Shown in pieces: positions 5,615-27,789 of a stretch of 32,000 nucleotides of DNA. Each line of letters opens with the position of its first letter. Within the stretch, counting starts at the first letter, position 1. A model generated the notes under the pieces. That model was not told the DNA's origin. It searched no databases and was given only the letters and a program-made list of their open reading frames with translations. The position numbers and the translations under genes were made by a program. This DNA comes from Wolbachia endosymbiont of Cimex lectularius. GTDB taxonomy: Bacteria > Pseudomonadota > Alphaproteobacteria > Rickettsiales > Anaplasmataceae. The stretch spans positions 390,001-422,000 of the forward strand of contig NZ_AP013028.1 of assembly GCF_000829315.1 (NCBI RefSeq). The letters run 5' to 3'.

Positions 5615-6101
5615 ACAAGACGGCATCTTTTTAATTTGTCCTATTACCAGTGAAATTTGGTATTAGACTTGAAATCCTGAAACCAGTCATTGAATACTGT
5701 GGTGGAAATCCGGACAAAATCTACGATTATTACCTTGTATCTTGTAAAAAGCATCTAATGTTTTAAGCTTAAGCATTAGAACCTGTTTAAAATCTTGGAA
5801 ATGTGAGGTAAAGTAAGCATAGATTAATAATGAGGTGTCTATGCAGAAAAGTTATCCAAGTAATATAAGTCAAGAGCAGTTTGAAAAAATCAGGCCAATT
5901 TTGGAGAGTAGCAAGCAGAAAACAAAACCAAGAAAACTTGATTTGTATGACGTATTTTGTGGGGTGTTGTACGTCTTAAAAAGTGGTTGTCAGTGGAGGA
6001 TGTTACCAAAGGGTTTTCCAAGATGGGAAAGCGTATATTACTATTTTCGAGTGTGGAGTAAAAAGAATGGAGAAGAGCCAAGCTTGTTGGAATTAGTCTT
6101 A

Positions 6102-6961
6102 GAACCTGTTTAAAATCTTCGTAACAGGAGAGAAATGAAGGAGAGGACTATCATCTGTAAGCTAGTGTTGAGCTTCCGCTCGCAATTTTTCCACAATCGC
6201 CTGCACTTTTCTAACCAGGCAAAAGAGCGTTCAACAACCCATCTTTTTGGCAATACGACGAAAGTGTGTAACTCACTTCGCTTATTACTTCAACAGTCGC
6301 ACCAATGATAGCTTTTATTTGTGTTGCAAAATTTTCTCCTGTGTAGCCAGCATCAACCAGTATGTTTTTAACTTCAGAGAGGTTTGCTTTAGCATTTTCG
6401 ACCATTTTCACAGCACTGCTACGGTCAGTTGCTTCTGCCGTTGTTACATAAATTGCATGTGGCAAACCTTGTGTATCAACTGCAATATGGCGCTTTATCC
6501 CTGAAATCTTTTTACCTGCATCATAGCCTTTTTTTTTCAGCAGTATCTGCGTTTTTAACGCTTTGAGAATCAATTATACAAAAGCTAGTTTTCTCTTTCC
6601 GACCATTGCTGATACGGACCTCTCCAACTAATTTTTTTTAAGACTAATTCCAACAAGCTTGGCTCTTCTCCATTCTTTTTACTCCACACTCGAAAATAGT
6701 AATATACGCTTTCCCATCTTGGAAAACCCTTTGGTAACATCCTCCACTGACAACCACTTTTTAAGACGTACAACACCCCACAAAATACGTCATACAAATC
6801 AAGTTTTCTTGGTTTTGTTTTCTGCTTGCTACTCTCCAAAATTGGCCTGATTTTTTCAAACTGCTCTTGACTTATATTACTTGGATAACTTTTCTGCATA
6901 GACACCTCATTATTAATCTATGCTTACTTTACCTCACATTTCCAAGATTTTAAACAGGTTC
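6102..6961 (-). mobile_element. IS5-family IS copy B, nested in copy A in inverted orientation; TTA duplication at 6099-6101 and 6962-6964
   Basis: It is 860 bp with the same terminal inverted repeats as copy A, flanked by the two halves of copy A. Confidence 0.88.
6110..6905 (-). pseudogene. IS5-family transposase of copy B (orfA intact, orfB with two indels)
   Basis: Relative to copies A, C and D, the second homopolymer run is 9 nt (6529-6537) instead of 8. One base of a T3 run is missing near 6282, changing [11 protein letters not shown] to [11 protein letters not shown]. Confidence 0.75.
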
Positions 6962-7528
6962 TTAAAAAAAATTAGTTGGAGAGGTCCGTATCAGCAATGG
7001 TCGGAAAGAGAAAACTAGCTTTTGTATAATTGATTCTCAAAGCGTTAAAAACGCAGATACTGCTGAAAAAAAAGGCTATGATGCAGGTAAAAAGATTTCA
7101 GGGATAAAGCGCCATATTGCAGTTGATACACAAGGTTTGCCACATGCAATTTATGTAACAACGGCAGAAGCAACTGACCGTAGCAGTGCTGTGAAAATGG
7201 TCGAAAATGCTAAAGCAAACCTCTCTGAAGTTAAAAACATACTGGTTGATGCTGGCTACACAGGAGAAAATTTTGCAACACAAATAAAAGCTATCATTGG
7301 TGCGACTGTTGAAGTAATAAAGCGAAGTGAGTTACACACTTTCGTCGTATTGCCAAAAAGATGGGTTGTTGAACGCTCTTTTGCCTGGTTAGAAAAGTGC
7401 AGGCGATTGTGGAAAAATTGCGAGCGGAAGCTCAACACTAGCTTACAGATGATAGTCCTCTCCTTCATTTCTCTCCTGTTACGAAGATTTTAAACAGGTT
7501 CTTACACAAATTTATTGAATGTAGTTGG

Positions 7529-7605
7529 TTAGTGTATATGTTGATAAGTAAATTGGTTTTATACATATAAGACAGCAGAAATTTACTTATCAACATATAC
7601 ACTAA
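7529..7605. repeat. perfect 26-nt inverted repeat (long hairpin), 25-nt loop
   Basis: TTAGTGTATATGTTGATAAGTAAATT (7529-7554) is the exact reverse complement of 7580-7605. One more G-C pair is possible at 7528/7606. Confidence 0.85.
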
Positions 7606-7780
7606 CTATAATTTGTATGCCGCTACACAGTTGGAAGTATTTTTTGATTTCACAATACAGCTAAGGCAATTTAGATCCAATTTTTATAATTTTCTTGTTG
7701 ACTAACAAGACGGTTGTAAGTTGGAAATGTGATATAAAAGAAGCAAGAAGGAAGATAACCTATAAAAATGTGGTTATCAC

Positions 7781-7926
7781 AGGCTTGAGCGACCGTAAGA
7801 CAAGTAGTATTACACATATGTAGATATCAAGGTACTCAAGCCTATCCTTCGAGACGTTTGAATAGTTGTTTGGGACATACATATGCACCCGTTTACAATC
7901 TTAAATTTTAACTTAAACTCTCGAGG
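7781..7926 (+). ncRNA. candidate IS110 bridge (guide) RNA in the 5' non-coding end
   Basis: Stem AGGCTTGAG (7781-7789) / CTCAAGCCT (7835-7843) encloses a 45-nt loop containing AGATATCAA. A second stem, CCTTCGAGA (7846-7854) / TCTCGAGG (7919-7926), encloses a 64-nt loop with stretches resembling the IS ends. The call is inference only. Confidence 0.35.
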
Positions 7927-7932
7927 TTCTTT

Positions 7933-8879
7933 ATGATTACATCTTATCAAAATTTTATTGGCATTGATATCGGAAAACTTGAATTCGTTACTGCAGTTAA
8001 TGAACAAAAAGGTGTCATCAAGTTTGACAATAATTGTGCTGGTTGGAAGCAATTCTACCAGAAATTTTCAGATATCCTACCTAATTCCATGGTAATCTTG
8101 GAAGCTACAGGAGGTTATGAGCTTGGCTTATTGTATTTTCTTATTGACAGAAATATTGCTGTACACCGTGCTAATACTCGTCAAGTTAAAAACTTCATTC
8201 TATCTCATGGAACTTTGGCAAAGACTGACAATCTGGATGCAAAAGCGCTTGCTCAATATGGTTCTGAGCGTTATAGACATTTGCAGCTATTTACACCTAT
8301 CTAAAAAGAGCAAACCACCTTGTTCGCACTCTGTCAACGTCGTGACGATATCACAAAAATGCTTGTTCAAGAAAAAAATAGGCTAAAAACTCCTGAAAAT
8401 GATTACATCAAGGAAAGTTGTCAACACACTATTGAGTTCCTTAACAATCAGGTAAAAAATCTCGACCAAGCTATACAAAAAATAGTCAATGAAAATCCTG
8501 AATTACAACGATGCCAAAAGATTCTTGAAACAGTTCCTGGAATTGGTAGAAAAACCTCTCAATGTTTATTATGCCTTATACCAGAACTTGGTTCTTTAAA
8601 CAAAAAGCAAGTTGCAAGTCTTGCAGGTGTTGCACCTCATCCCAAGGAAAGTGGCAAAGCTATTGGTTACCGGAAGATTACAGGTGGTAGAAGTAACGTT
8701 CGTTCAAAGCTTTTTACAGCTCTATGGCTGCTAGGAACTCCAAGTCTGAGCTTGCCGCCTTTTATTGCAAGCTTGTTGATAATGGTAAAAGAAAAATGGT
8801 AGCACTTACTGCACTTATGTGTAAAATTATAGTTATTGCCAATTCCAGACTTAAAGAAGCAATTAATTTGAACATTTAA
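7933..8879 (+). pseudogene. IS110-family DEDD/RuvC-like transposase carrying an in-frame stop and a frameshift
   Basis: Motifs present are N-terminal GIDIGK and ILEATGGYE, then VPGIGRKTS and PKESGK. There is an in-frame TAA at 8305-8307 (..LFTPI*KEQTTL..). The conserved C-terminus (MAARNSKSELAAFYCKLVDNGKRKMVALTALMCKIIVIANSRL) is in the -1 frame from about 8721 and stops at 8877-8879. Confidence 0.8.
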
Positions 8880-9078
8880 AAATTTACACAGCAGTAACTG
8901 CAATGAATATTGTGAATAAGTACGTTCACACAGACTTAAAGTACTTATTCACATATTCATTGGCTTAAGTAAAAATTGCTGTGGTAGCTGTCTGATATAA
9001 AATCTATTTCTATGACAAGCGGGTTTTTATTGCCCATATGACTGGGTAAAGTTGCAAAATCACACAAATAAAAAATTT

Positions 9079-9345
9079 TTAAAAAACATAATTGATATCT
9101 CTATGTCCTATCTCTGTGACAATTACTGTGCGTTCTGATTGATTTACTCTGTAAACCACACGATAGTTACCTACTCTTAACCTTCTACGCCCTTTTAAAC
9201 TATAATATAGTGGTTCACCAAGGTTTATTGGATCAACTGTAAGTAGTTCATTTATTGCCTTTACTATCCTTAACCTTATTGTTTTTGGAAGATTTTGGAG
9301 ATCTTTCCTAATAACTTTTCCTACGAAGATAATAGTGTATCCCAA
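9079..9345 (-). CDS. relE: RelE/ParE-family toxin (relE-1); its last codons and stop come from the IS110 end
   Basis: 88 aa, paralogous to relE-3 (..LTVDPI.LG.PL......RRLRVG.YR..YRV......V..IGHRD). After GHRDIN(Y) the sequence enters IS110 copy 1. The gene overlaps relB-1 by 25 nt. Confidence 0.7.
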   Translation of the reverse strand: MGYTIIFVGKVIRKDLQNLPKTIRLRIVKAINELLTVDPINLGEPLYYSLKGRRRLRVGNYRVVYRVNQSERTVIVTEIGHRDINYVF

Positions 9346-9551
9346 TCTATATCCTCACTTTTAATCATTTCTGCGCTTTCAACATCACGCTCATCGGAGA
9401 TTTTAGATACTAGAAAATCCTCTATTTCACGATCTATTGCTTCTCTAAATAGCCTTTCTGCTAGTTCTTGAGTAGGCTGCTTAGTAAGCTCAACCAGTTT
9501 AGCAAAGTGCTGTAGAGTTTCTCTACTGAAAGCTACATTAGCGTTTGCCAT
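9321..9551 (-). CDS. relB: RelB/ParD-like antitoxin (relB-1)
   Basis: 76 aa (MANANVAFSRETLQHFAKLVELTKQP...) located upstream of and overlapping the toxin gene. It has an acidic C-terminus and two paralogues in the window. Confidence 0.7.
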   Translation of the reverse strand: MANANVAFSRETLQHFAKLVELTKQPTQELAERLFREAIDREIEDFLVSKISDERDVESAEMIKSEDIDWDTLLSS

Positions 9552-15370: not shown

Positions 15371-15767
15371 AGTATTTACAAAATTGAGCTTTCAAAGAGG
15401 TATGCTAAAAAGGATTTTCCAGCTCTGCCAGAAGAAACAAAATCTGCTATTAAAAAGCTATAGAAGAGGAGCTCAAAGTTAAACCAACCAAAGTCGGTAA
15501 ACCATTACGTGGTAAATTACGAGGATATAGAAGACTAAAATTCGATAAATATCAACTGTGTTTTTTAAAAATTTTTTATTTGTGTGATTTTGCAACTTTA
15601 CCCAGTCATATGGGCAATAAAAACCCGCTTGTCATAGAAATAGATTTTATATCAGACAGCTACCACAGCAATTTTTACTTAAGCCAATGAATATGTGAAT
15701 AAGTACTTTAAGTCTGTGTGAACGTACTTATTCACAATATTCATTGCAGTTACTGCTGTGTAAATTT

Positions 15768-16714
15768 TTAAATGTTCAAATTAATTGCTTCTTTAAGTCT
15801 GGAATTGGCAATAACTATAATTTTACACATAAGTGCAGTAAGTGCTACCATTTTTCTTTTACCATTATCAACAAGCTTGCAATAAAAGGCGGCAAGCTCA
15901 GACTTGGAGTTCCTAGCAGCCATAGAGCTGTAAAAAGCTTTGAACGAACGTTACTTCTACCACCTGTAATCTTCCGGTAACCAATAGCTTTGCCACTTTC
16001 CTTGGGATGAGGTGCAACACCTGCAAGACTTGCAACTTGCTTTTTGTTTAAAGAACCAAGTTCTGGTATAAGGCATAATAAACATTGAGAGGTTTTTCTA
16101 CCAATTCCAGGAACTGTTTCAAGAATCTTTTGGCATCGTTGTAATTCAGGATTTTCATTGACTATTTTTTGTATAGCTTGGTCGAGATTTTTTACCTGAT
16201 TGTTAAGGAACTCAATAGTGTGTTGACAACTTTCCTTGATGTAATCATTTTCAGGAGTTTTTAGCCTATTTTTTTCTTGAACAAGCATTTTTGTGATATC
16301 GTCACGACGTTGACAGAGTGCGAACAAGGTGGTTTGCTCTTTTTAGATAGGTGTAAATAGCTGCAAATGTCTATAACGCTCAGAACCATATTGAGCAAGC
16401 GCTTTTGCATCCAGATTGTCAGTCTTTGCCAAAGTTCCATGAGATAGAATGAAGTTTTTAACTTGACGAGTATTAGCACGGTGTACAGCAATATTTCTGT
16501 CAATAAGAAAATACAATAAGCCAAGCTCATAACCTCCTGTAGCTTCCAAGATTACCATGGAATTAGGTAGGATATCTGAAAATTTCTGGTAGAATTGCTT
16601 CCAACCAGCACAATTATTGTCAAACTTGATGACACCTTTTTGTTCATTAACTGCAGTAACGAATTCAAGTTTTCCGATATCAATGCCAATAAAATTTTGA
16701 TAAGATGTAATCAT
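15768..16714 (-). pseudogene. IS110-family transposase, with the same stop and frameshift as copy 1
   Basis: ORF translations (123 aa + 160 aa) are identical to copy 1. The lesions are therefore shared. Confidence 0.8.
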
Positions 16715-16720
16715 AAAGAA

Positions 16721-16866
16721 CCTCGAGAGTTTAAGTTAAAATTTAAGATTGTAAACGGGTGCATATGTATGTCCCAAACAACTATTCAAACGTCTCGAAG
16801 GATAGGCTTGAGTACCTTGATATCTACATATGTGTAATACTACTTGTCTTACGGTCGCTCAAGCCT
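16721..16866 (-). ncRNA. candidate IS110 bridge RNA (copy 2)
   Basis: This is the mirror of 7781-7926 with identical sequence. Confidence 0.35.
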
Positions 16867-17089
16867 GTGATAACCACATTTTTATAGGTTATCTTCCTTC
16901 TTGCTTCTTTTATATCACATTTCCAACTTACAACCGTCTTATCTATCATGTGAATATTTCAAAACGCAAAGTACTTCTCGTTACAGCAGGACATAGAGAT
17001 AACATTTATAACCAGGCAGGATTGTTAGATTTACTACCAAAACTTTAAATATATTTTTATACACCACTTTCCCTGATCCATTTTCTTTA

Positions 17090-17117
17090 TTGAAAATTAA
17101 AAAAGATGCTGTATACT
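17090..17117 (+). promoter_or_regulatory. putative relBE-3 promoter, TTGAAA-16-TATACT
   Basis: The -35 is at 17090-17095 and the -10 at 17112-17117. Confidence 0.45.
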
Positions 17118-17146
17118 AATCATAGTAGTAGATTTTGGTAAAACCT

Positions 17147-17362
17147 GTGGCAAATGCTAACATAGCTTTCAGTAAAGAAACCTCACAACACTTTGCTAAA
17201 CTAGTTGAGCTCACTAAGCAGCCCGCTCAAGAACTAGCAGAAAGGCTATTCAAAAAAGCAATAGAGCGTGAAGAGGAAGATTTCTTATTATCTGTGGTTG
17301 CTAACGAGTACGATGTTGATGGTGTGGAAGAAATAGAAGATAGTGAAGAAATTTGGAAATAA
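17147..17362 (+). CDS. relB: RelB/ParD-like antitoxin (relB-3)
   Basis: (V)ANANIAFSKETSQHFAKLVELTKQPAQELAERLF is nearly the same as relB-1. I prefer the GTG at 17147 by alignment with relB-1; the ORF track starts at TTG 17135. Confidence 0.7.
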   Translation: MANANIAFSKETSQHFAKLVELTKQPAQELAERLFKKAIEREEEDFLLSVVANEYDVDGVEEIEDSEEIWK

Positions 17363-17657: not shown

Positions 17658-17794
17658 CACATTTTCTATCAAGTCAAATTATACTGTAGAGACTATATAT
17701 TTTTATACAGCTCCTTTTCCTGATCCATTCTCCATCTTAGGCGGCTTTGCTCAGCTCAAAAAATTGAGACTTTTTGGACCTTATATACTATTTA

Positions 17795-18654
17795 GAACCT
17801 GTTTAAAATCTTGGAAATGTGAGGTAAAGTAAGCATAGATTAATAATGAGGTGTCTATGCAGAAAAGTTATCCAAGTAATATAAGTCAAGAGCAGTTTGA
17901 AAAAATCAGGCCAATTTTGGAGAGTAGCAAGCAGAAAACAAAACCAAGAAAACTTGATTTGTATGACGTATTTTGTGGGGTGTTGTACGTCTTAAAAAGT
18001 GGTTGTCAGTGGAGGATGTTACCAAAGGGTTTTCCAAGATGGGAAAGCGTATATTACTATTTTCGAGTGTGGAGTAAAAAGAGTGGAGAAGAGCCAAGCT
18101 TGTTGGAATTAGTCTTAAAAAAAATTAGTTGGAGAGGTCCGTATCAGCAATGGTCGGAAAGAGAAAACTAGCTTTTGTATAATTGATTCTCAAAGCGTTA
18201 AAAACGCAGATACTGCTGAAAAAAAAGGCTATGATGCAGGTAAAAAGATTTCAGGGATAAAGCGCCATATTGCAGTTGATACACAAGGTTTGCCACATGC
18301 AATTTATGTAACAACGGCAGAAGCAACTGACCGTAGCAGTGCTGTGAAAATGGTCGAAAATGCTAAAGCAAACCTCTCTGAAGTTAAAAACATACTGGTT
18401 GATGCTGGCTACACAGGAGAAAATTTTGCAACACAAATAAAAGCTATCATTGGTGCGACTGTTGAAGTAATAAAGCGAAGTGAGTTACACACTTTCGTCG
18501 TATTGCCAAAAAGATGGGTTGTTGAACGCTCTTTTGCCTGGTTAGAAAAGTGCAGGCGATTGTGGAAAAATTGCGAGCGGAAGCTCAACGCTAGCTTACA
18601 GATGATAGTCCTCTCCTTCATTTCTCTCCTGTTACGAAGATTTTAAACAGGTTC
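17795..18654 (+). mobile_element. IS5-family IS copy C (860 bp), TTA duplications at 17792-17794 and 18655-18657
   Basis: It has the same inverted-repeat ends as copy A and matching 3-bp flanks. Confidence 0.9.
17851..18646 (+). CDS. IS5-family DDE transposase, orfA + orfB joined only after a +1 frame change at an A8 run (18117-18124)
   Basis: orfA (106 aa) ends in ..KKISWRGPYQQWSEREN*. The +1 frame reads LVGEVRISNGRKEKTSFCIIDSQSVKNADTAEKKGYDAGKKISGIKRHIAVDTQGLP...DAGY...[11 protein letters not shown], which are IS5-family hallmarks. Confidence 0.8.
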
Positions 18655-18884
18655 TTAGATTAATACAGTTTTTTTGGCATCCATTTAGTAAGAAAATAAC
18701 TAATAAATTCAGTTGCTTATAGTAACTAATTAGAGCTTTTCTTAAGGAGAGCGCGCAGCGAATCATGTGGTTATAACAATTGAAAATGAAAAAGTGTGGA
18801 GATGAGTTTTTGCCATATTATATAAAATCCTTGACTTTATACTGTCAATCATGTAACATTAAGTAAAAATTAAGCGATGGAAAT

Positions 18885-26618: not shown

Positions 26619-26811
26619 AGATTTCTTTTACCGTACATCTATATTAAACCAAAGAAAAATCTTAGTCTATACAGCAGGCATCGTTATCAGATTATTAGTA
26701 ATTTTTATGATATAATTGTGTCAATGGAGAGTAATACTATGGCAGAGGCAAAGGGAAATCCAATAGTTACATTGAAAGCCCAAGCTGAAAAGTTTGACTT
26801 CAGCAAACTAA

Positions 26812-27671
26812 GAACCTGTTTAAAATCTTGGAAATGTGAGGTAAAGTAAGCATAGATTAATAATGAGGTGTCTATGCAGAAAAGTTATCCAAGTAATATA
26901 AGTCAAGAGCAGTTTGAAAAAATCAGGCCAATTTTGGAGAGTAGCAAGCAGAAAACAAAACCAAGAAAACTTGATTTGTATGACGTATTTTGTGGGGTGT
27001 TGTACGTCTTAAAAAGTGGTTGTCAGTGGAGGATGTTACCAAAGGGTTTTCCAAGATGGGAAAGCGTATATTACTATTTTCGAGTGTGGAGTAAAAAGAA
27101 TGGAGAAGAGCCAAGCTTGTTGGAATTAGTCTTAAAAAAAATTAGTTGGAGAGGTCCGTATCAGCAATGGTCGGAAAGAGAAAACTAGCTTTTGTATAAT
27201 TGATTCTCAAAGCGTTAAAAACGCAGATACTGCTGAAAAAAAAGGCTATGATGCAGGTAAAAAGATTTCAGGGATAAAGCGCCATATTGCAGTTGATACA
27301 CAAGGTTTGCCACATGCAATTTGTGTAACAACGGCAGAAGCAACTGACCGTAGCAGTGCTGTGAAAATGGTCGAAAATGCTAAAGCAAACCTCTCTGAAG
27401 TTAAAAACATACTGGTTGATGCTGGCTACACAGGAGAAAATTTTGCAACACAAATAAAAGCTATCATTGGTGCGACTGTTGAAGTAATAAAGCGAAGTGA
27501 GTTACACACTTTCGTCGTATTGCCAAAAAGATGGGTTGTTGAACGCTCTTTTGCCTGGTTAGAAAAGTGCAGGCGATTGTGGAAAAATTGCGAGCGGAAG
27601 CTCAACACTAGCTTACAGATGATAGTCCTCTCCTTCATTTCTCTCCTGTTACGAAGATTTTAAACAGGTTC
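26812..27671 (+). mobile_element. IS5-family IS copy D (860 bp); flanks TAA (26809-26811) versus TTA (27672-27674)
   Basis: It has the same ends as copies A to C. It differs by a few SNPs, for example Y to C in AIYVTT. Confidence 0.9.
26868..27663 (+). CDS. IS5-family DDE transposase (orfA/orfB, A8 run at 27134-27141)
   Basis: The organisation is the same as in copy C. Confidence 0.8.
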
Positions 27672-27789
27672 TTAGACGTTTTACTTTCTCAAAATCACCA
27701 TTCTTAGCAGCATCAAGTAATTCAGTATTTAAATTGCTCATCCCACCTCCGTTGTAAAGTTGCATTATTATGGTAAAGTCATTAACAAT

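What the first reader, a model, noticed from the sequence alone, without database searches (positions are those of the whole stretch)
7781..7926. Candidate bridge RNA in the IS110 5' non-coding end, with a loop matching the insertion-site flank
The 225-nt region between the IS left end and the transposase ATG contains two long-range stems: 7781-7789/7835-7843 (9 bp) and 7846-7854/7919-7926. Each encloses a large internal loop, which is the architecture described for IS110-family bridge RNAs (target-binding and donor-binding loops). Loop 1 contains AGATATCAA (7822-7830). This is identical to the 9 nt flanking copy 1 in relE sense and matches 8 of 9 nt of the copy 2 flank. Loop 1 also contains ACCGTAAGAC, which resembles the IS left end (AAGACGGT) on both strands. 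Loop 2 contains GTTTACAATC and TAAATTTTAAC, which resemble the reverse complement of the left end (CTTACAACC) and the right end (AAATTTTTAAAA). A 9-mer match to the very site of insertion is unlikely by chance, even in AT-rich DNA.
Basis: inference. Interest (0 to 1): 0.7.

Follow-up and report, generated by a model that had tools for sequence, protein, structure and literature searches.

The report
Decayed IS110 bridge RNA in Wolbachia
The non-coding stretch in front of this broken Wolbachia IS110 transposase gene encodes a bridge (guide) RNA of the kind described in 2024, whose loops spell out the insertion site and the element's own ends; it is a new but ordinary and decayed member of a known class.

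Summary

- **Boundaries.** Real empty sites and restored reading frames fix copy 1 at 7715-9096, with one shared T and an (A/G)T core. The target is LT7-(A/G)T-RT5.
- **The 9-mer.** AGATATCAA (7822-7830) is the reverse complement of TTG (element end), AT (core) and ATCT (flank) at 9092-9100. It is therefore right target guide plus core plus handshake nucleotides.
- **Left target guide.** The 5' strand of loop 1 reads TAAGACGGT in intact relatives. This equals the left flank plus core in sense.
- **Covariation.** Across 11 related elements and 36 sites (52-90% transposase identity), loop 1 changes with the flanks. The cognate guide set ranks first at 32 of 36 sites, and 0 of 20,000 permutations reach the observed score.
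- **Donor loop.** Loop 2 carries ATAGTTG (right end, sense) and TTACAAT (reverse complement of core plus left end).
- **Structure.** The three-hairpin fold is conserved: 95% of cells pair and 12 pairs show compensatory changes. A model built without the window hits both copies at 180 bits.
- **Decay.** Both window copies are decayed, with a stop and a frameshift in the gene, an indel in the guide and mutated right ends.
- **Prior knowledge.** Durrant et al. 2024 already list relative ISWpi12 as an IS110-group element with its bridge RNA in the left end.

The parts
7706..7712 (+). Left target half (LT7) of copy 1, CAAGACG. This is host/target DNA, not part of the element.
   Evidence: Boundaries come from empty sites. 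It matches 6 of 7 of the intact guide TAAGACG of the 90% relative.
7713..7714 (+). Core dinucleotide GT at the left junction of copy 1.
   Evidence: T7714 is the single base shared by both junctions.
7715..9096 (+). IS110-family element, copy 1 (1382 nt, counting the right-hand core AT at 9095-9096). It starts TGTAAGTT and ends CATAATTGAT.
   Evidence: It is 89% identical to the intact Wolbachia (Armadillidium arcangelii) element L020.
7730..7738 (+). Extended -10 box TGATATAAA, nearly invariant in all relatives. In the excised circle it lies 17 nt downstream of TTGATT (TTG 9092-9094, AT 9095-9096, T 7715), which would serve as the -35.
   Evidence: Invariant columns. The junction sequence was assembled. 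No promoter is called here in the integrated state. Promoter function is inferred.
7739..7932 (+). Bridge RNA region of copy 1: full-length match to model R1, which was built from relatives only.
   Evidence: 179.8 bits, E 6e-41, model positions 1-200 of 200.
7754..7778 (+). 5' stem-loop: GATAACC 7754-7760 pairs with GGTTATC 7772-7778.
   Evidence: Helix 1 has compensatory changes at 4 pairs.
7781..7843 (+). Target-binding loop domain: outer stem 7781-7789/7835-7843, plus ACC 7792-7794 pairing with GGT 7831-7833, and a distal hairpin at about 7807-7819.
   Evidence: helix 2 is 100% paired, with 2 compensatory pairs.
7796..7805 (+). Left target guide plus core on the 5' strand of loop 1. It reads TAAGACAAGT here, a decayed form of TAAGACGGT (G replaced by AA).
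   Evidence: The intact form equals the left flank plus core in sense.
7821..7830 (+). 3' strand of loop 1: right target guide TAGAT (7821-7825), core AT (7826-7827), handshake-like CAA (7828-7830).
   Evidence: covariation with the right flank. CAA is the reverse complement of the element's last TTG.
7846..7926 (+). Donor-binding loop domain: outer stem about 7846-7853/7919-7926, distal hairpin TGGG 7871-7874 pairing with CCCG 7888-7891. The Shine-Dalgarno GAGG (7923-7926) lies in the 3' strand of the outer stem.
   Evidence: helices 4 and 5 are 99% paired, with 5 compensatory pairs.
7862..7868 (+). Left donor guide ATAGTTG on the 5' strand of loop 2. It is the sense copy of the last 7 nt before the core at the right end of intact relatives.
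   Evidence: invariant columns.
7893..7899 (+). Right donor guide TTACAAT on the 3' strand of loop 2. It is the reverse complement of core AT plus the left end TGTAA.
   Evidence: invariant in all families.
7933..8879 (+). Transposase pseudogene (DEDD_Tnp_IS110 plus Transposase_20), with an in-frame TAA at 8302-8304 and a frameshift near 8722.
9088..9094 (+). Left donor half (LD7) at the right end of copy 1. It reads ATAATTG, one change from the family-invariant ATAGTTG.
9097..9101 (+). Right target half (RT5) of copy 1, ATCTC, inside the 3' end of a relE/parE gene on the minus strand.
15551..16932 (-). Copy 2 of the element. Its bridge RNA region is 16908-16715. The flanks are LT7 TAAGACG 16941-16935, core GT 16934-16933 and RT5 ATTTA 15550-15546. 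It interrupts a second relE/parE paralog.
   Evidence: Removing the element restores ...KFDKYRLIYHVNISKRKVLLVTAGHRD.

Best explanation
Window 7739-7932, and its twin at 16908-16715 on the minus strand, is the bridge RNA gene of an IS110-group insertion sequence of Wolbachia. The element is a relative of ISWpi12.

**Architecture.** The RNA is about 185 nt and has three parts: a 5' stem-loop, a target-binding loop (TBL) and a donor-binding loop (DBL).

**Guide rules.** These are taken from IS621 (Durrant 2024).
- The 5' strand of each loop has the same sequence as the top strand of the left half-site plus core. It therefore pairs with the bottom strand.
- The 3' strand is the reverse complement of the core plus the right half-site.

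**Assignments here.**
- TBL 5' strand: TAAGACG-GT in intact relatives.
- TBL 3' strand: TAGAT-AT, followed by CAA. CAA pairs with the last TTG of the element, which is the position of a handshake guide.
- The specified target is TAAGACG-(G/A)T-ATCTA.
- DBL: ATAGTTG (right end of the element, sense) and TTACAAT (reverse complement of core AT plus left end TGTAA). Together these recognise the junction CATAGTTG-AT-TGTAAG of the excised circle.

**Expression (inferred).** The circle junction would also create a -35 (TTGATT) 17 nt upstream of the conserved extended -10 TGATATAAA. The RNA would then be made mainly from the circle.

**Shown versus inferred.**
- Shown: the boundaries, the guide-flank covariation, the guide-end identities and the conserved fold.
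- Inferred: transcription, promoter use, pairing in a synaptic complex and strand exchange at the core.

**State of the window copies.** Both are relics.
- The transposase gene carries a stop and a frameshift.
- The left target guide carries an indel.
- Each right end has one mutation in the 7 nt read by the donor loop.

Their 99.9% identity therefore points to gene conversion, or to mobilisation in trans by an intact copy.
For: **Boundaries.**
- For relative L032, the empty site in a 98% identical phage WO record reads ACGCCATGTAAAAATTC. The occupied site reads ACGCCATG|TTGTAAG...CATAGTTGA|TAAAAATTC. A second case, L044 against WOVitA4, has the same geometry.
- With these boundaries, excising copy 2 restores a RelE/ParE frame. 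Excising L043 restores MutL.
- An unoccupied paralogous arm in L020 differs from the predicted target by one base and has the same length.

**Target-loop covariation.**
- The test used 11 guide sets and 36 distinct insertion sites.
- The mean cognate match is 9.5 of 12 variable positions, against 4.7 after permutation. None of 20,000 permutations reaches it. The left and right halves are each significant on their own.
- The cognate guide set ranks first at 32 of 36 sites.
- Examples of right-flank changes with the guide: GATATCT with AGATATC, GATGAG with CTCATC, GATAAAAA with TTTTTATC, GATCGAAG with CTTCGATC, GATCCAGA with TCTGGATC.

**Donor loop.** ATAGTTG and TTACAAT are invariant in all families, and so are the element ends they match.

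**Fold.**
- All 16 representatives fold on their own into the same three domains.
- 95.1% of cells pair, against 29-39% for slid controls. 12 pairs show changes on both sides, against 0-3 for slid controls. None of 500 shuffles reaches the observed values.

**Model.** R1 was built without the window. It matches 7739-7932 (+) and 16715-16908 (-) at 179.8 bits over its full length.

**Protein.**
- It has DEDD_Tnp_IS110 plus Transposase_20 domains.
- D12, E57, D99, D102 and S240 are invariant. They parallel IS621 D11, E60, D102, D105 and S241.

**Literature.**
- The guide rules come from PMC11208160 and the handshake guides from PMC11208158.
- Supplementary file 8 of PMC11208160 lists ISWpi12 as 'LE, IS110'.
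- NCBI names several relatives 'IS110 family RNA-guided transposase'.
Against: - There are no expression data, and no Rfam 15 family matched.
- Donor ends and donor guides never vary among the relatives. The donor loop therefore rests on identity and position, not on covariation.
- The two bases at the core position of the left donor guide are TT here and CA, TG or AA elsewhere. They do not match the donor core AT.
- In this window the left target guide (TAAGACAAGT) no longer matches its own flanks: 5-6 of 9, against 8-9 of 9 for the intact form.
- One relative, P0017, sits at a site that does not fit its own guides (3 of 12).
- Two families need a 1-nt register shift of the left guide.
- Left half-site matches are looser (4-7 of 7) than those reported for IS621.
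Confidence: 0.9

Rival explanations
1. The region is only a structured 5' leader of the transposase mRNA. On this view it acts as a translational attenuator that hides the ribosome-binding site, has no guide function, and its matches to flanks arise by chance in AT-rich DNA.
For: The Shine-Dalgarno GAGG (7923-7926) lies in the 3' strand of the outer stem of loop 2. Short AT-rich matches are common: the 9-mer has a window-wide expectation of 0.59.
Against: Loop 1 changes in step with both flanks in 11 related elements, and 0 of 20,000 permutations reach the observed match. Both strands follow the strand rules published for IS621. A leader role would not explain this. RBS occlusion could still be an added feature.
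Confidence: 0.04
2. The loop-flank identities reflect target-site preference set by the protein, or by homology between the element ends and the target. The loop sequences would then be copies of the ends rather than guides.
For: Element ends and targets do resemble each other near the core: TTGAT|TGTAAG against ...GT|ATCT. The constant parts of loop 1 (TG after the core, CAA after AT) equal the element ends.
Against: The variable 7 + 5 positions of loop 1 match the flanks, not the element ends. The ends are invariant while the targets differ between families. Transposases 70% or more identical use unrelated targets that track their loops.
Confidence: 0.03
3. The functional guide RNA is encoded in the long, strongly folding 3' non-coding end (8880-9096), as in IS1111-group elements. 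The 5' region would then be secondary.
For: The 3' end is 217 nt, unusually long for the IS110 group, and folds with z = -5.2. Its hairpin is conserved within the Wolbachia clade.
Against: Relatives with 52-54% transposase identity keep the whole 5' RNA and the same ends, yet have only 5-21 nt after the stop codon. No stretch of the 3' end covaries with the flanks. All four guide segments were found in the 5' RNA.
Confidence: 0.03

Closest known systems
IS621 bridge RNA (IS110 group; Durrant et al. 2024, PMC11208160; Hiraizumi et al. 2024, PMC11208158)
   Same: - It is encoded in the left end, upstream of a DEDD/Tnp recombinase.
- It has a 5' stem-loop followed by two internal-loop domains.
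- In each loop the 5' strand is the sense of the left half-site plus core, and the 3' strand is antisense to the core plus right half-site.
- The first loop reads the target and the second reads the donor.
- The bases just 3' of the right target guide pair with the donor, as handshake guides do.
- A promoter is probably completed by the circle junction.
   Different: - The core is (A/G)T, not CT.
- The half-sites are 7 + 2 + 5.
- The left donor guide does not cover the core.
- The handshake-like segment is three bases (CAA).
- There is no sequence similarity detectable by Rfam.
- The host is an obligate intracellular alphaproteobacterium.
- The copies in this window are decayed.
ISWpi12 (ISfinder; Wolbachia pipientis)
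   Same: - It belongs to the same clade, with about 71% transposase identity (P0014 is named an ISWpi12-family transposase).
- It has the same element ends, the same donor loop and the same RNA architecture.
- Durrant et al. list it as IS110 group with the bridge RNA in the left end.
   Different: - The target guides differ: GCAGAAT-AT-GGACA in the P0014 family against TAAGACG-GT-ATCTA here.
- The 5' stem-loop here is shorter.
- DNA identity is about 75%. By my recollection of ISfinder practice that makes it a distinct IS, but I did not check the naming rule.
IS1111-group seekRNA / bridge RNA elements (for example IS4321/IS5075, which target the ends of other transposons)
   Same: Both are RNA-guided DEDD transposases. 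The habit of inserting into the terminal sequence of another mobile element is also shared: 8 of 10 copies in the Armadillidium arcangelii Wolbachia, and copy 1 here, sit in the end of an ISWen2-like element or MITE.
   Different: In the IS1111 group the RNA lies in the right end, downstream of the gene, and there are long subterminal inverted repeats. Here the RNA lies in the left end and no such repeats were seen.

Membership tests
IS110-group bridge RNA | Encoded in the non-coding left end, upstream of a recombinase with a DEDD RuvC-like domain and a Tnp domain carrying a catalytic Ser. | tested here: met
   PF01548 and PF02371 hits. D12, E57, D99, D102 and S240 are invariant in the family. 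The RNA lies between the left end (7715) and the ATG (7933). The gene itself is a pseudogene in this window.
IS110-group bridge RNA | Target-binding loop: the 5' strand equals the left target plus core (sense), the 3' strand is the reverse complement of core plus right target, and both covary with the flanks. | tested here: met
   11 guide sets and 36 sites. The cognate set ranks first at 32 of 36 sites. 0 of 20,000 permutations reach the observed match, for each half alone as well.
IS110-group bridge RNA | Donor-binding loop: the 5' strand equals the right end of the element (left donor), and the 3' strand is the reverse complement of core plus the left end (right donor). | tested here: met
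   ATAGTTG (7862-7868) equals the last 7 nt before the core in intact relatives. TTACAAT (7893-7899) is the reverse complement of ATTGTAA. This rests on identity only; covariation cannot be tested because the ends are invariant.
IS110-group bridge RNA | The core dinucleotide is represented in all four guide segments. | tested here: inconclusive
   The core is present in the left target guide (GT or AT), the right target guide (AT) and the right donor guide (AT). At the matching place the left donor guide has TT, CA, TG or AA instead of AT.
IS110-group bridge RNA | Conserved secondary structure: a 5' stem-loop plus two stem / internal-loop / hairpin domains. | tested here: met
   Each of 16 sequences folds this way on its own. 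95.1% of cells pair and 12 pairs show compensatory changes, against 0-3 in slid controls.
IS110-group bridge RNA | Handshake guides: the bases 3' of the right target guide pair with the donor rather than with the target. | tested here: met
   CAA (7828-7830) is the reverse complement of the element's terminal TTG (9092-9094). The matching donor-loop bases (CTT) are constant and do not track the left target.
IS110-group bridge RNA | The circular intermediate rebuilds a promoter across the right-end/left-end junction, and this promoter drives the RNA. | tested here: inconclusive
   The junction gives TTGATT, a 17-nt spacer, then TG-n-TATAAA. The integrated copy has no -35. This is sequence evidence only. 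That IS621 uses such a promoter is recalled from the literature and was not re-read here.
IS110-group bridge RNA | Match to a published bridge-RNA covariance model. | not testable with these tools
   Rfam 15 gave no hit at the gathering threshold or at E up to 10. The models of Durrant et al. are not available here. Their table lists relative ISWpi12 as 'LE, IS110'.
IS110-group bridge RNA | The RNA is expressed, binds the recombinase and directs recombination. | not testable with these tools
   This needs RNA-seq or a Northern blot, plus recombination assays.
IS1111 group (RNA in the right end) | Guide RNA downstream of the gene, a long right end, a short left end and long subterminal inverted repeats. 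| tested here: not met
   All guides lie in the left end. Distant relatives have right ends of only 5-21 nt. The long right end of the Wolbachia clade shows no relation to the flanks.

The most novel reading that the evidence does not exclude
The ISWpi12 clade may be a mechanistic variant of bridge recombination. Its possible departures from IS621 are:
- an (A/G)T core in which the left target guide alone sets G versus A, while the right target guide tolerates G through a U-G wobble;
- a left donor guide that stops short of the core;
- a clade-specific 170-240-nt right end whose conserved hairpin and second TGATATAAA-like box might form an extra regulatory or RNA module.

In addition, decayed copies such as these two might still be moved in trans by intact copies elsewhere in the genome. 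That would explain their 99.9% identity.
Probability: 0.15. Interest if true: 0.4.

Novelty: new member of a known kind. Interest (0 to 1): 0.25.

Why it matters
**What it adds.**
- It gives a worked natural example of bridge-RNA targeting in Wolbachia, with boundaries, core and all four guide segments assigned. It covers 11 natural guide/target pairs from one clade.
- It explains why this element sits in relE/parE genes and in the ends of other insertion sequences.
- The guide table could be used to predict insertion sites and to annotate such elements correctly. The true ends lie 7-8 nt inside the left limit, and 2 nt inside the right limit, of the identity shared by the two copies (7707-9098).

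**What it does not add.** It does not change the understanding of the mechanism. The class was described in 2024, and a close relative was already listed as carrying such an RNA.

Tried and rejected
- **Element ends from copy identity (7707-9098).** Rejected. The shared AAGACGG on the left is target DNA that matches the guide, and the last two shared bases on the right (AT, 9097-9098) are flank (RT).
- **A 'GA core' model** (..AA-GA-CGGTTG / ..GTT-GA-TATCT). It seemed to restore the relE frame. It was rejected because it gives a RelE one residue short and fails on the MutL frame and on the phage WO empty sites.
- **A 'TT core' model** (ends TT-GTAAG / CATAG-TT). Rejected because it breaks the frame in both relE and MutL.
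- **Rfam 15**, at the gathering threshold and at E up to 10. There was no bridge-RNA hit. The only hits were spurious miRNA matches to an 81-nt palindrome at 7527-7607.
- **The genome-contig scan** returned only 19 loci. Most useful copies came from exact-protein look-ups instead.
- **The near-match to the predicted target at 5616-5629** (CAAGACGGCATCTT). Its context is unrelated, so it is a chance hit.
- **RNAalifold on the raw MAFFT alignment** missed the 5' stem-loop and paired the two donor guides with each other. I used a hand-drawn structure instead and tested it by pair counts.
- **The 3' non-coding end as the guide RNA.** Rejected (see rival explanations).

Full report
**What is in the window**

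The window is AT-rich (36% GC) and carries many insertion sequences. Its close relatives are all Wolbachia. An IS110-family element is present twice, as an inverted repeat. The two arms, 7707-9098 (+) and 15549-16940 (-), are about 99.9% identical.

The transposase gene (7933-8879) has DEDD_Tnp_IS110 and Transposase_20 domains. It is broken in both copies by an in-frame TAA at 8302 and by a frameshift near 8722.

The region folds better than shuffles (z = -3.15). The 9-mer AGATATCAA lies at 7822-7830, and its reverse complement lies at 9092-9100. Rfam 15 has no family that matches.

**Where the element really ends**

Ten intact copies of a 90% identical element from Wolbachia of Armadillidium arcangelii (L020-L029) all continue through ...CATAGTTGAT before their flanks diverge. 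About 70% identical elements from eight other Wolbachia genomes, and 52-54% relatives from metagenomes, share the same ends: TGTAAGT... and ...(CA)TAGTTGAT.

Two real empty sites fix the junction.
- For L032, a 98% identical phage WO record reads ...ACGCCATGTAAAAATTC...
- The occupied site reads ...ACGCCATG|TTGTAAG ... CATAGTTGA|TAAAAATTC...
- L044 against WOVitA4 shows the same geometry.

So the element is (T)TGTAAG...CATAGTTGA(T). One T is shared by both junctions, and the core dinucleotide is (A/G)T.

Three independent checks agree with this.
- An unoccupied paralogous arm in L020 (GCAAGATGGTATCTTTCTT) has the length of the predicted target and differs from it by one base.
- Removing copy 2 restores a RelE/ParE frame...KFDKYRLIYHVNISKRKVLLVTAGHRD.
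- Removing L043 restores MutL.

Two earlier models, with a GA core and a TT core, failed these checks.

In window coordinates:

| Feature | Copy 1 (+) | Copy 2 (-) |
|---|---|---|
| Left target half (LT7) | CAAGACG, 7706-7712 | TAAGACG, 16941-16935 |
| Core at left junction | GT, 7713-7714 | GT, 16934-16933 |
| Element | 7715-9096 (core AT at 9095-9096) | 16932-15551 |
| Right target half (RT5) | ATCTC, 9097-9101 | ATTTA, 15550-15546 |

**What the loops say**

Durrant et al. state the guide rules for IS621. [quoted passage not shown] Loop 1 of this family has a fixed frame: CGACCG-[7 variable]-[A/G]T-TGG...ACCG-[5 variable]-AT-CAA-GGTA.
- In the intact 90% relative the 5' strand is TAAGACG-GT. 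The left flanks read CAAGACGGT, ATAGACGGT and CTAGGCGGT, and TAAGACGGT at window copy 2.
- The 3' strand is TAGAT-AT. The right flanks read AT-ATCTT, ATCTG, ATCTC and ATTTA.
CAA is complementary to the last TTG of the element. That is the position and partner of the handshake guides of IS621.

**Covariation**

I took 11 guide sets and 36 distinct insertion sites. I scored only the 12 variable positions and allowed one register shift on the left.
- The cognate score averages 9.5. After permuting guide sets among families it averages 4.7 (sd 0.6).
- None of 20,000 permutations reaches the observed value. The same holds for the left half alone and the right half alone.
- The cognate guide set is the best of the 11 at 32 of 36 sites.

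The exceptions are three P0014 sites, which tie with or lose to a similar guide set, and the single P0017 insertion, which does not fit its own guides.

**Donor loop**

The 5' strand of loop 2 carries ATAGTTG (7862-7868). This is identical to the last seven bases before the core at the right end of every intact relative. The 3' strand carries TTACAAT (7893-7899), the reverse complement of core AT plus left end TGTAA.

Together they describe the circle junction CATAGTTG-AT-TGTAAG. Both the ends and these guides are invariant, so the evidence here is identity in the expected place and strand, not covariation. The two bases that follow ATAGTTG (TT here; CA, TG or AA elsewhere) do not match the core.

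**Structure**

Each of 16 representatives folds on its own into a 5' stem-loop, a first stem / internal loop / hairpin and a second one.

I drew a 37-pair structure by hand on an alignment that excludes the window.
- 95.1% of cells form pairs, against 29-39% when partners are slid by 1-3 columns.
- 12 pairs carry changes on both sides, against 0-3 in the slid controls.
- No shuffle of 500 reaches the observed values.

A covariance model built from that alignment matches the window over its full length at 7739-7932 (+) and 16715-16908 (-). The score is 179.8 bits, E 6e-41.

**Expression (inferred)**

An extended -10, TGATATAAA (7730-7738), is nearly invariant across the family. In the integrated copy there is no -35. 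In the circle, the hexamer TTGATT, built from the right end, the core and the first base of the left end, lies 17 nt upstream. The Shine-Dalgarno GAGG lies in the 3' strand of the outer stem of loop 2.

**State of the window copies**

Besides the broken gene, the left target guide reads TAAGACAAGT instead of TAAGACGGT. It therefore matches its own flanks worse than the intact relative's guide does.

The only two differences between the copies inside the element are at 9089 and 9091. Both lie in the seven bases that the donor loop reads.

Copy 1 is an old insertion. The same site is occupied in another Wolbachia genome (L010), where the element is 92% identical and the flanks are about 90% identical. 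The near-identity of copies 1 and 2 therefore suggests gene conversion or mobilisation in trans. I could not decide between the two.

**Comparison with what is known**

This is the IS621-type bridge RNA system in all tested respects except three: the identity of the core, the missing core match in the left donor guide, and the lack of a curated model to score against.

Durrant et al. already list the relative ISWpi12 as an IS110-group element with its bridge RNA in the left end. NCBI already names several of these proteins 'IS110 family RNA-guided transposase'. No paper in the searchable library links Wolbachia, IS110 and bridge RNA.

I therefore file it as a new member of a known kind, of modest interest.

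Noticed in passing
window 8880-9096 (hairpin about 8902-8961; outer stem 8887-8895 / 8975-8983; TGATATAAAA box 8994-9003): The right non-coding end is 170-238 nt in the Wolbachia clade but only 5-21 nt in the 52-54% relatives. It folds strongly (z = -5.2). It holds a hairpin, AATGAATAT...ATATTCATT, conserved across the clade with two compensatory pairs. It also holds a conserved box that resembles the left-end -10. Function unknown.
   Followed up: partly
window 9089 and 9091, against 15558 and 15556 in copy 2: Inside the 1382-nt element the two copies differ at only two positions. Both lie in the 7-nt right-end segment (ATAGTTG) read by the donor loop: copy 1 has ATAATTG and copy 2 has ACAGTTG. 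A gene-conversion tract stopping short of the end is a mundane explanation, but it was not tested.
   Followed up: partly
window 7515-7712 (palindrome 7527-7607); loci L020, L022-L024 and L026-L029 upstream of the element: The left flank of copy 1 is homologous to the right end of a different IS110-family element (ISWen2-like) or a MITE derived from it. That element precedes 8 of 10 copies in the Armadillidium arcangelii Wolbachia. The usual natural target is therefore the tip of another mobile element. The 81-nt palindrome produces spurious sub-threshold miRNA hits in Rfam.
   Followed up: partly
window 9079-9551 (-) and about 16941-17320: Both element copies sit in relE/parE toxin genes of two paralogous toxin-antitoxin pairs, whose antitoxin regions are 78% alike. 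Copy 1 replaces the toxin's C-terminal end. Copy 2 splits the YRLIY motif. The second toxin also has an upstream frameshift.
   Followed up: partly
window 5778-7512, 17791-18664, 26809-27677: Several identical copies and nested or inverted fragments of an IS5-type element (transposase starting MSMQKSYPSNISQEQFEKIRPILE...). One complex arrangement lies directly left of copy 1.
   Followed up: no
loci L056-L058 (P0017 element): The only insertion found for this element matches its own loop-1 guides at 3 of 12 variable positions. Its right flank (GATGAG) would fit the guide of the wStri element. Either the guides changed after insertion or the element was mobilised by a different RNA.
   Followed up: no
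loci L001-L006 (wStri) and L061-L065 (P0094): In these two families the left flank matches the left target guide only after a 1-nt register shift. In wStri, the spacing between the matched block and the element start varies by 1 nt between copies.
   Followed up: partly
window 7923-7926: The transposase Shine-Dalgarno GAGG is part of the 3' strand of the outer stem of the donor-binding domain. Formation of the bridge RNA fold could therefore occlude translation initiation on read-through transcripts.
   Followed up: no
locus L010 (Wolbachia sp. C61_2, JBPETD010000001.1): This is an orthologous, independently decayed copy of window copy 1 at the same relE site in another genome. The element is 92% identical and the flanks about 90%. 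Its right end still reads the canonical CATAGTTGAT.
   Followed up: partly
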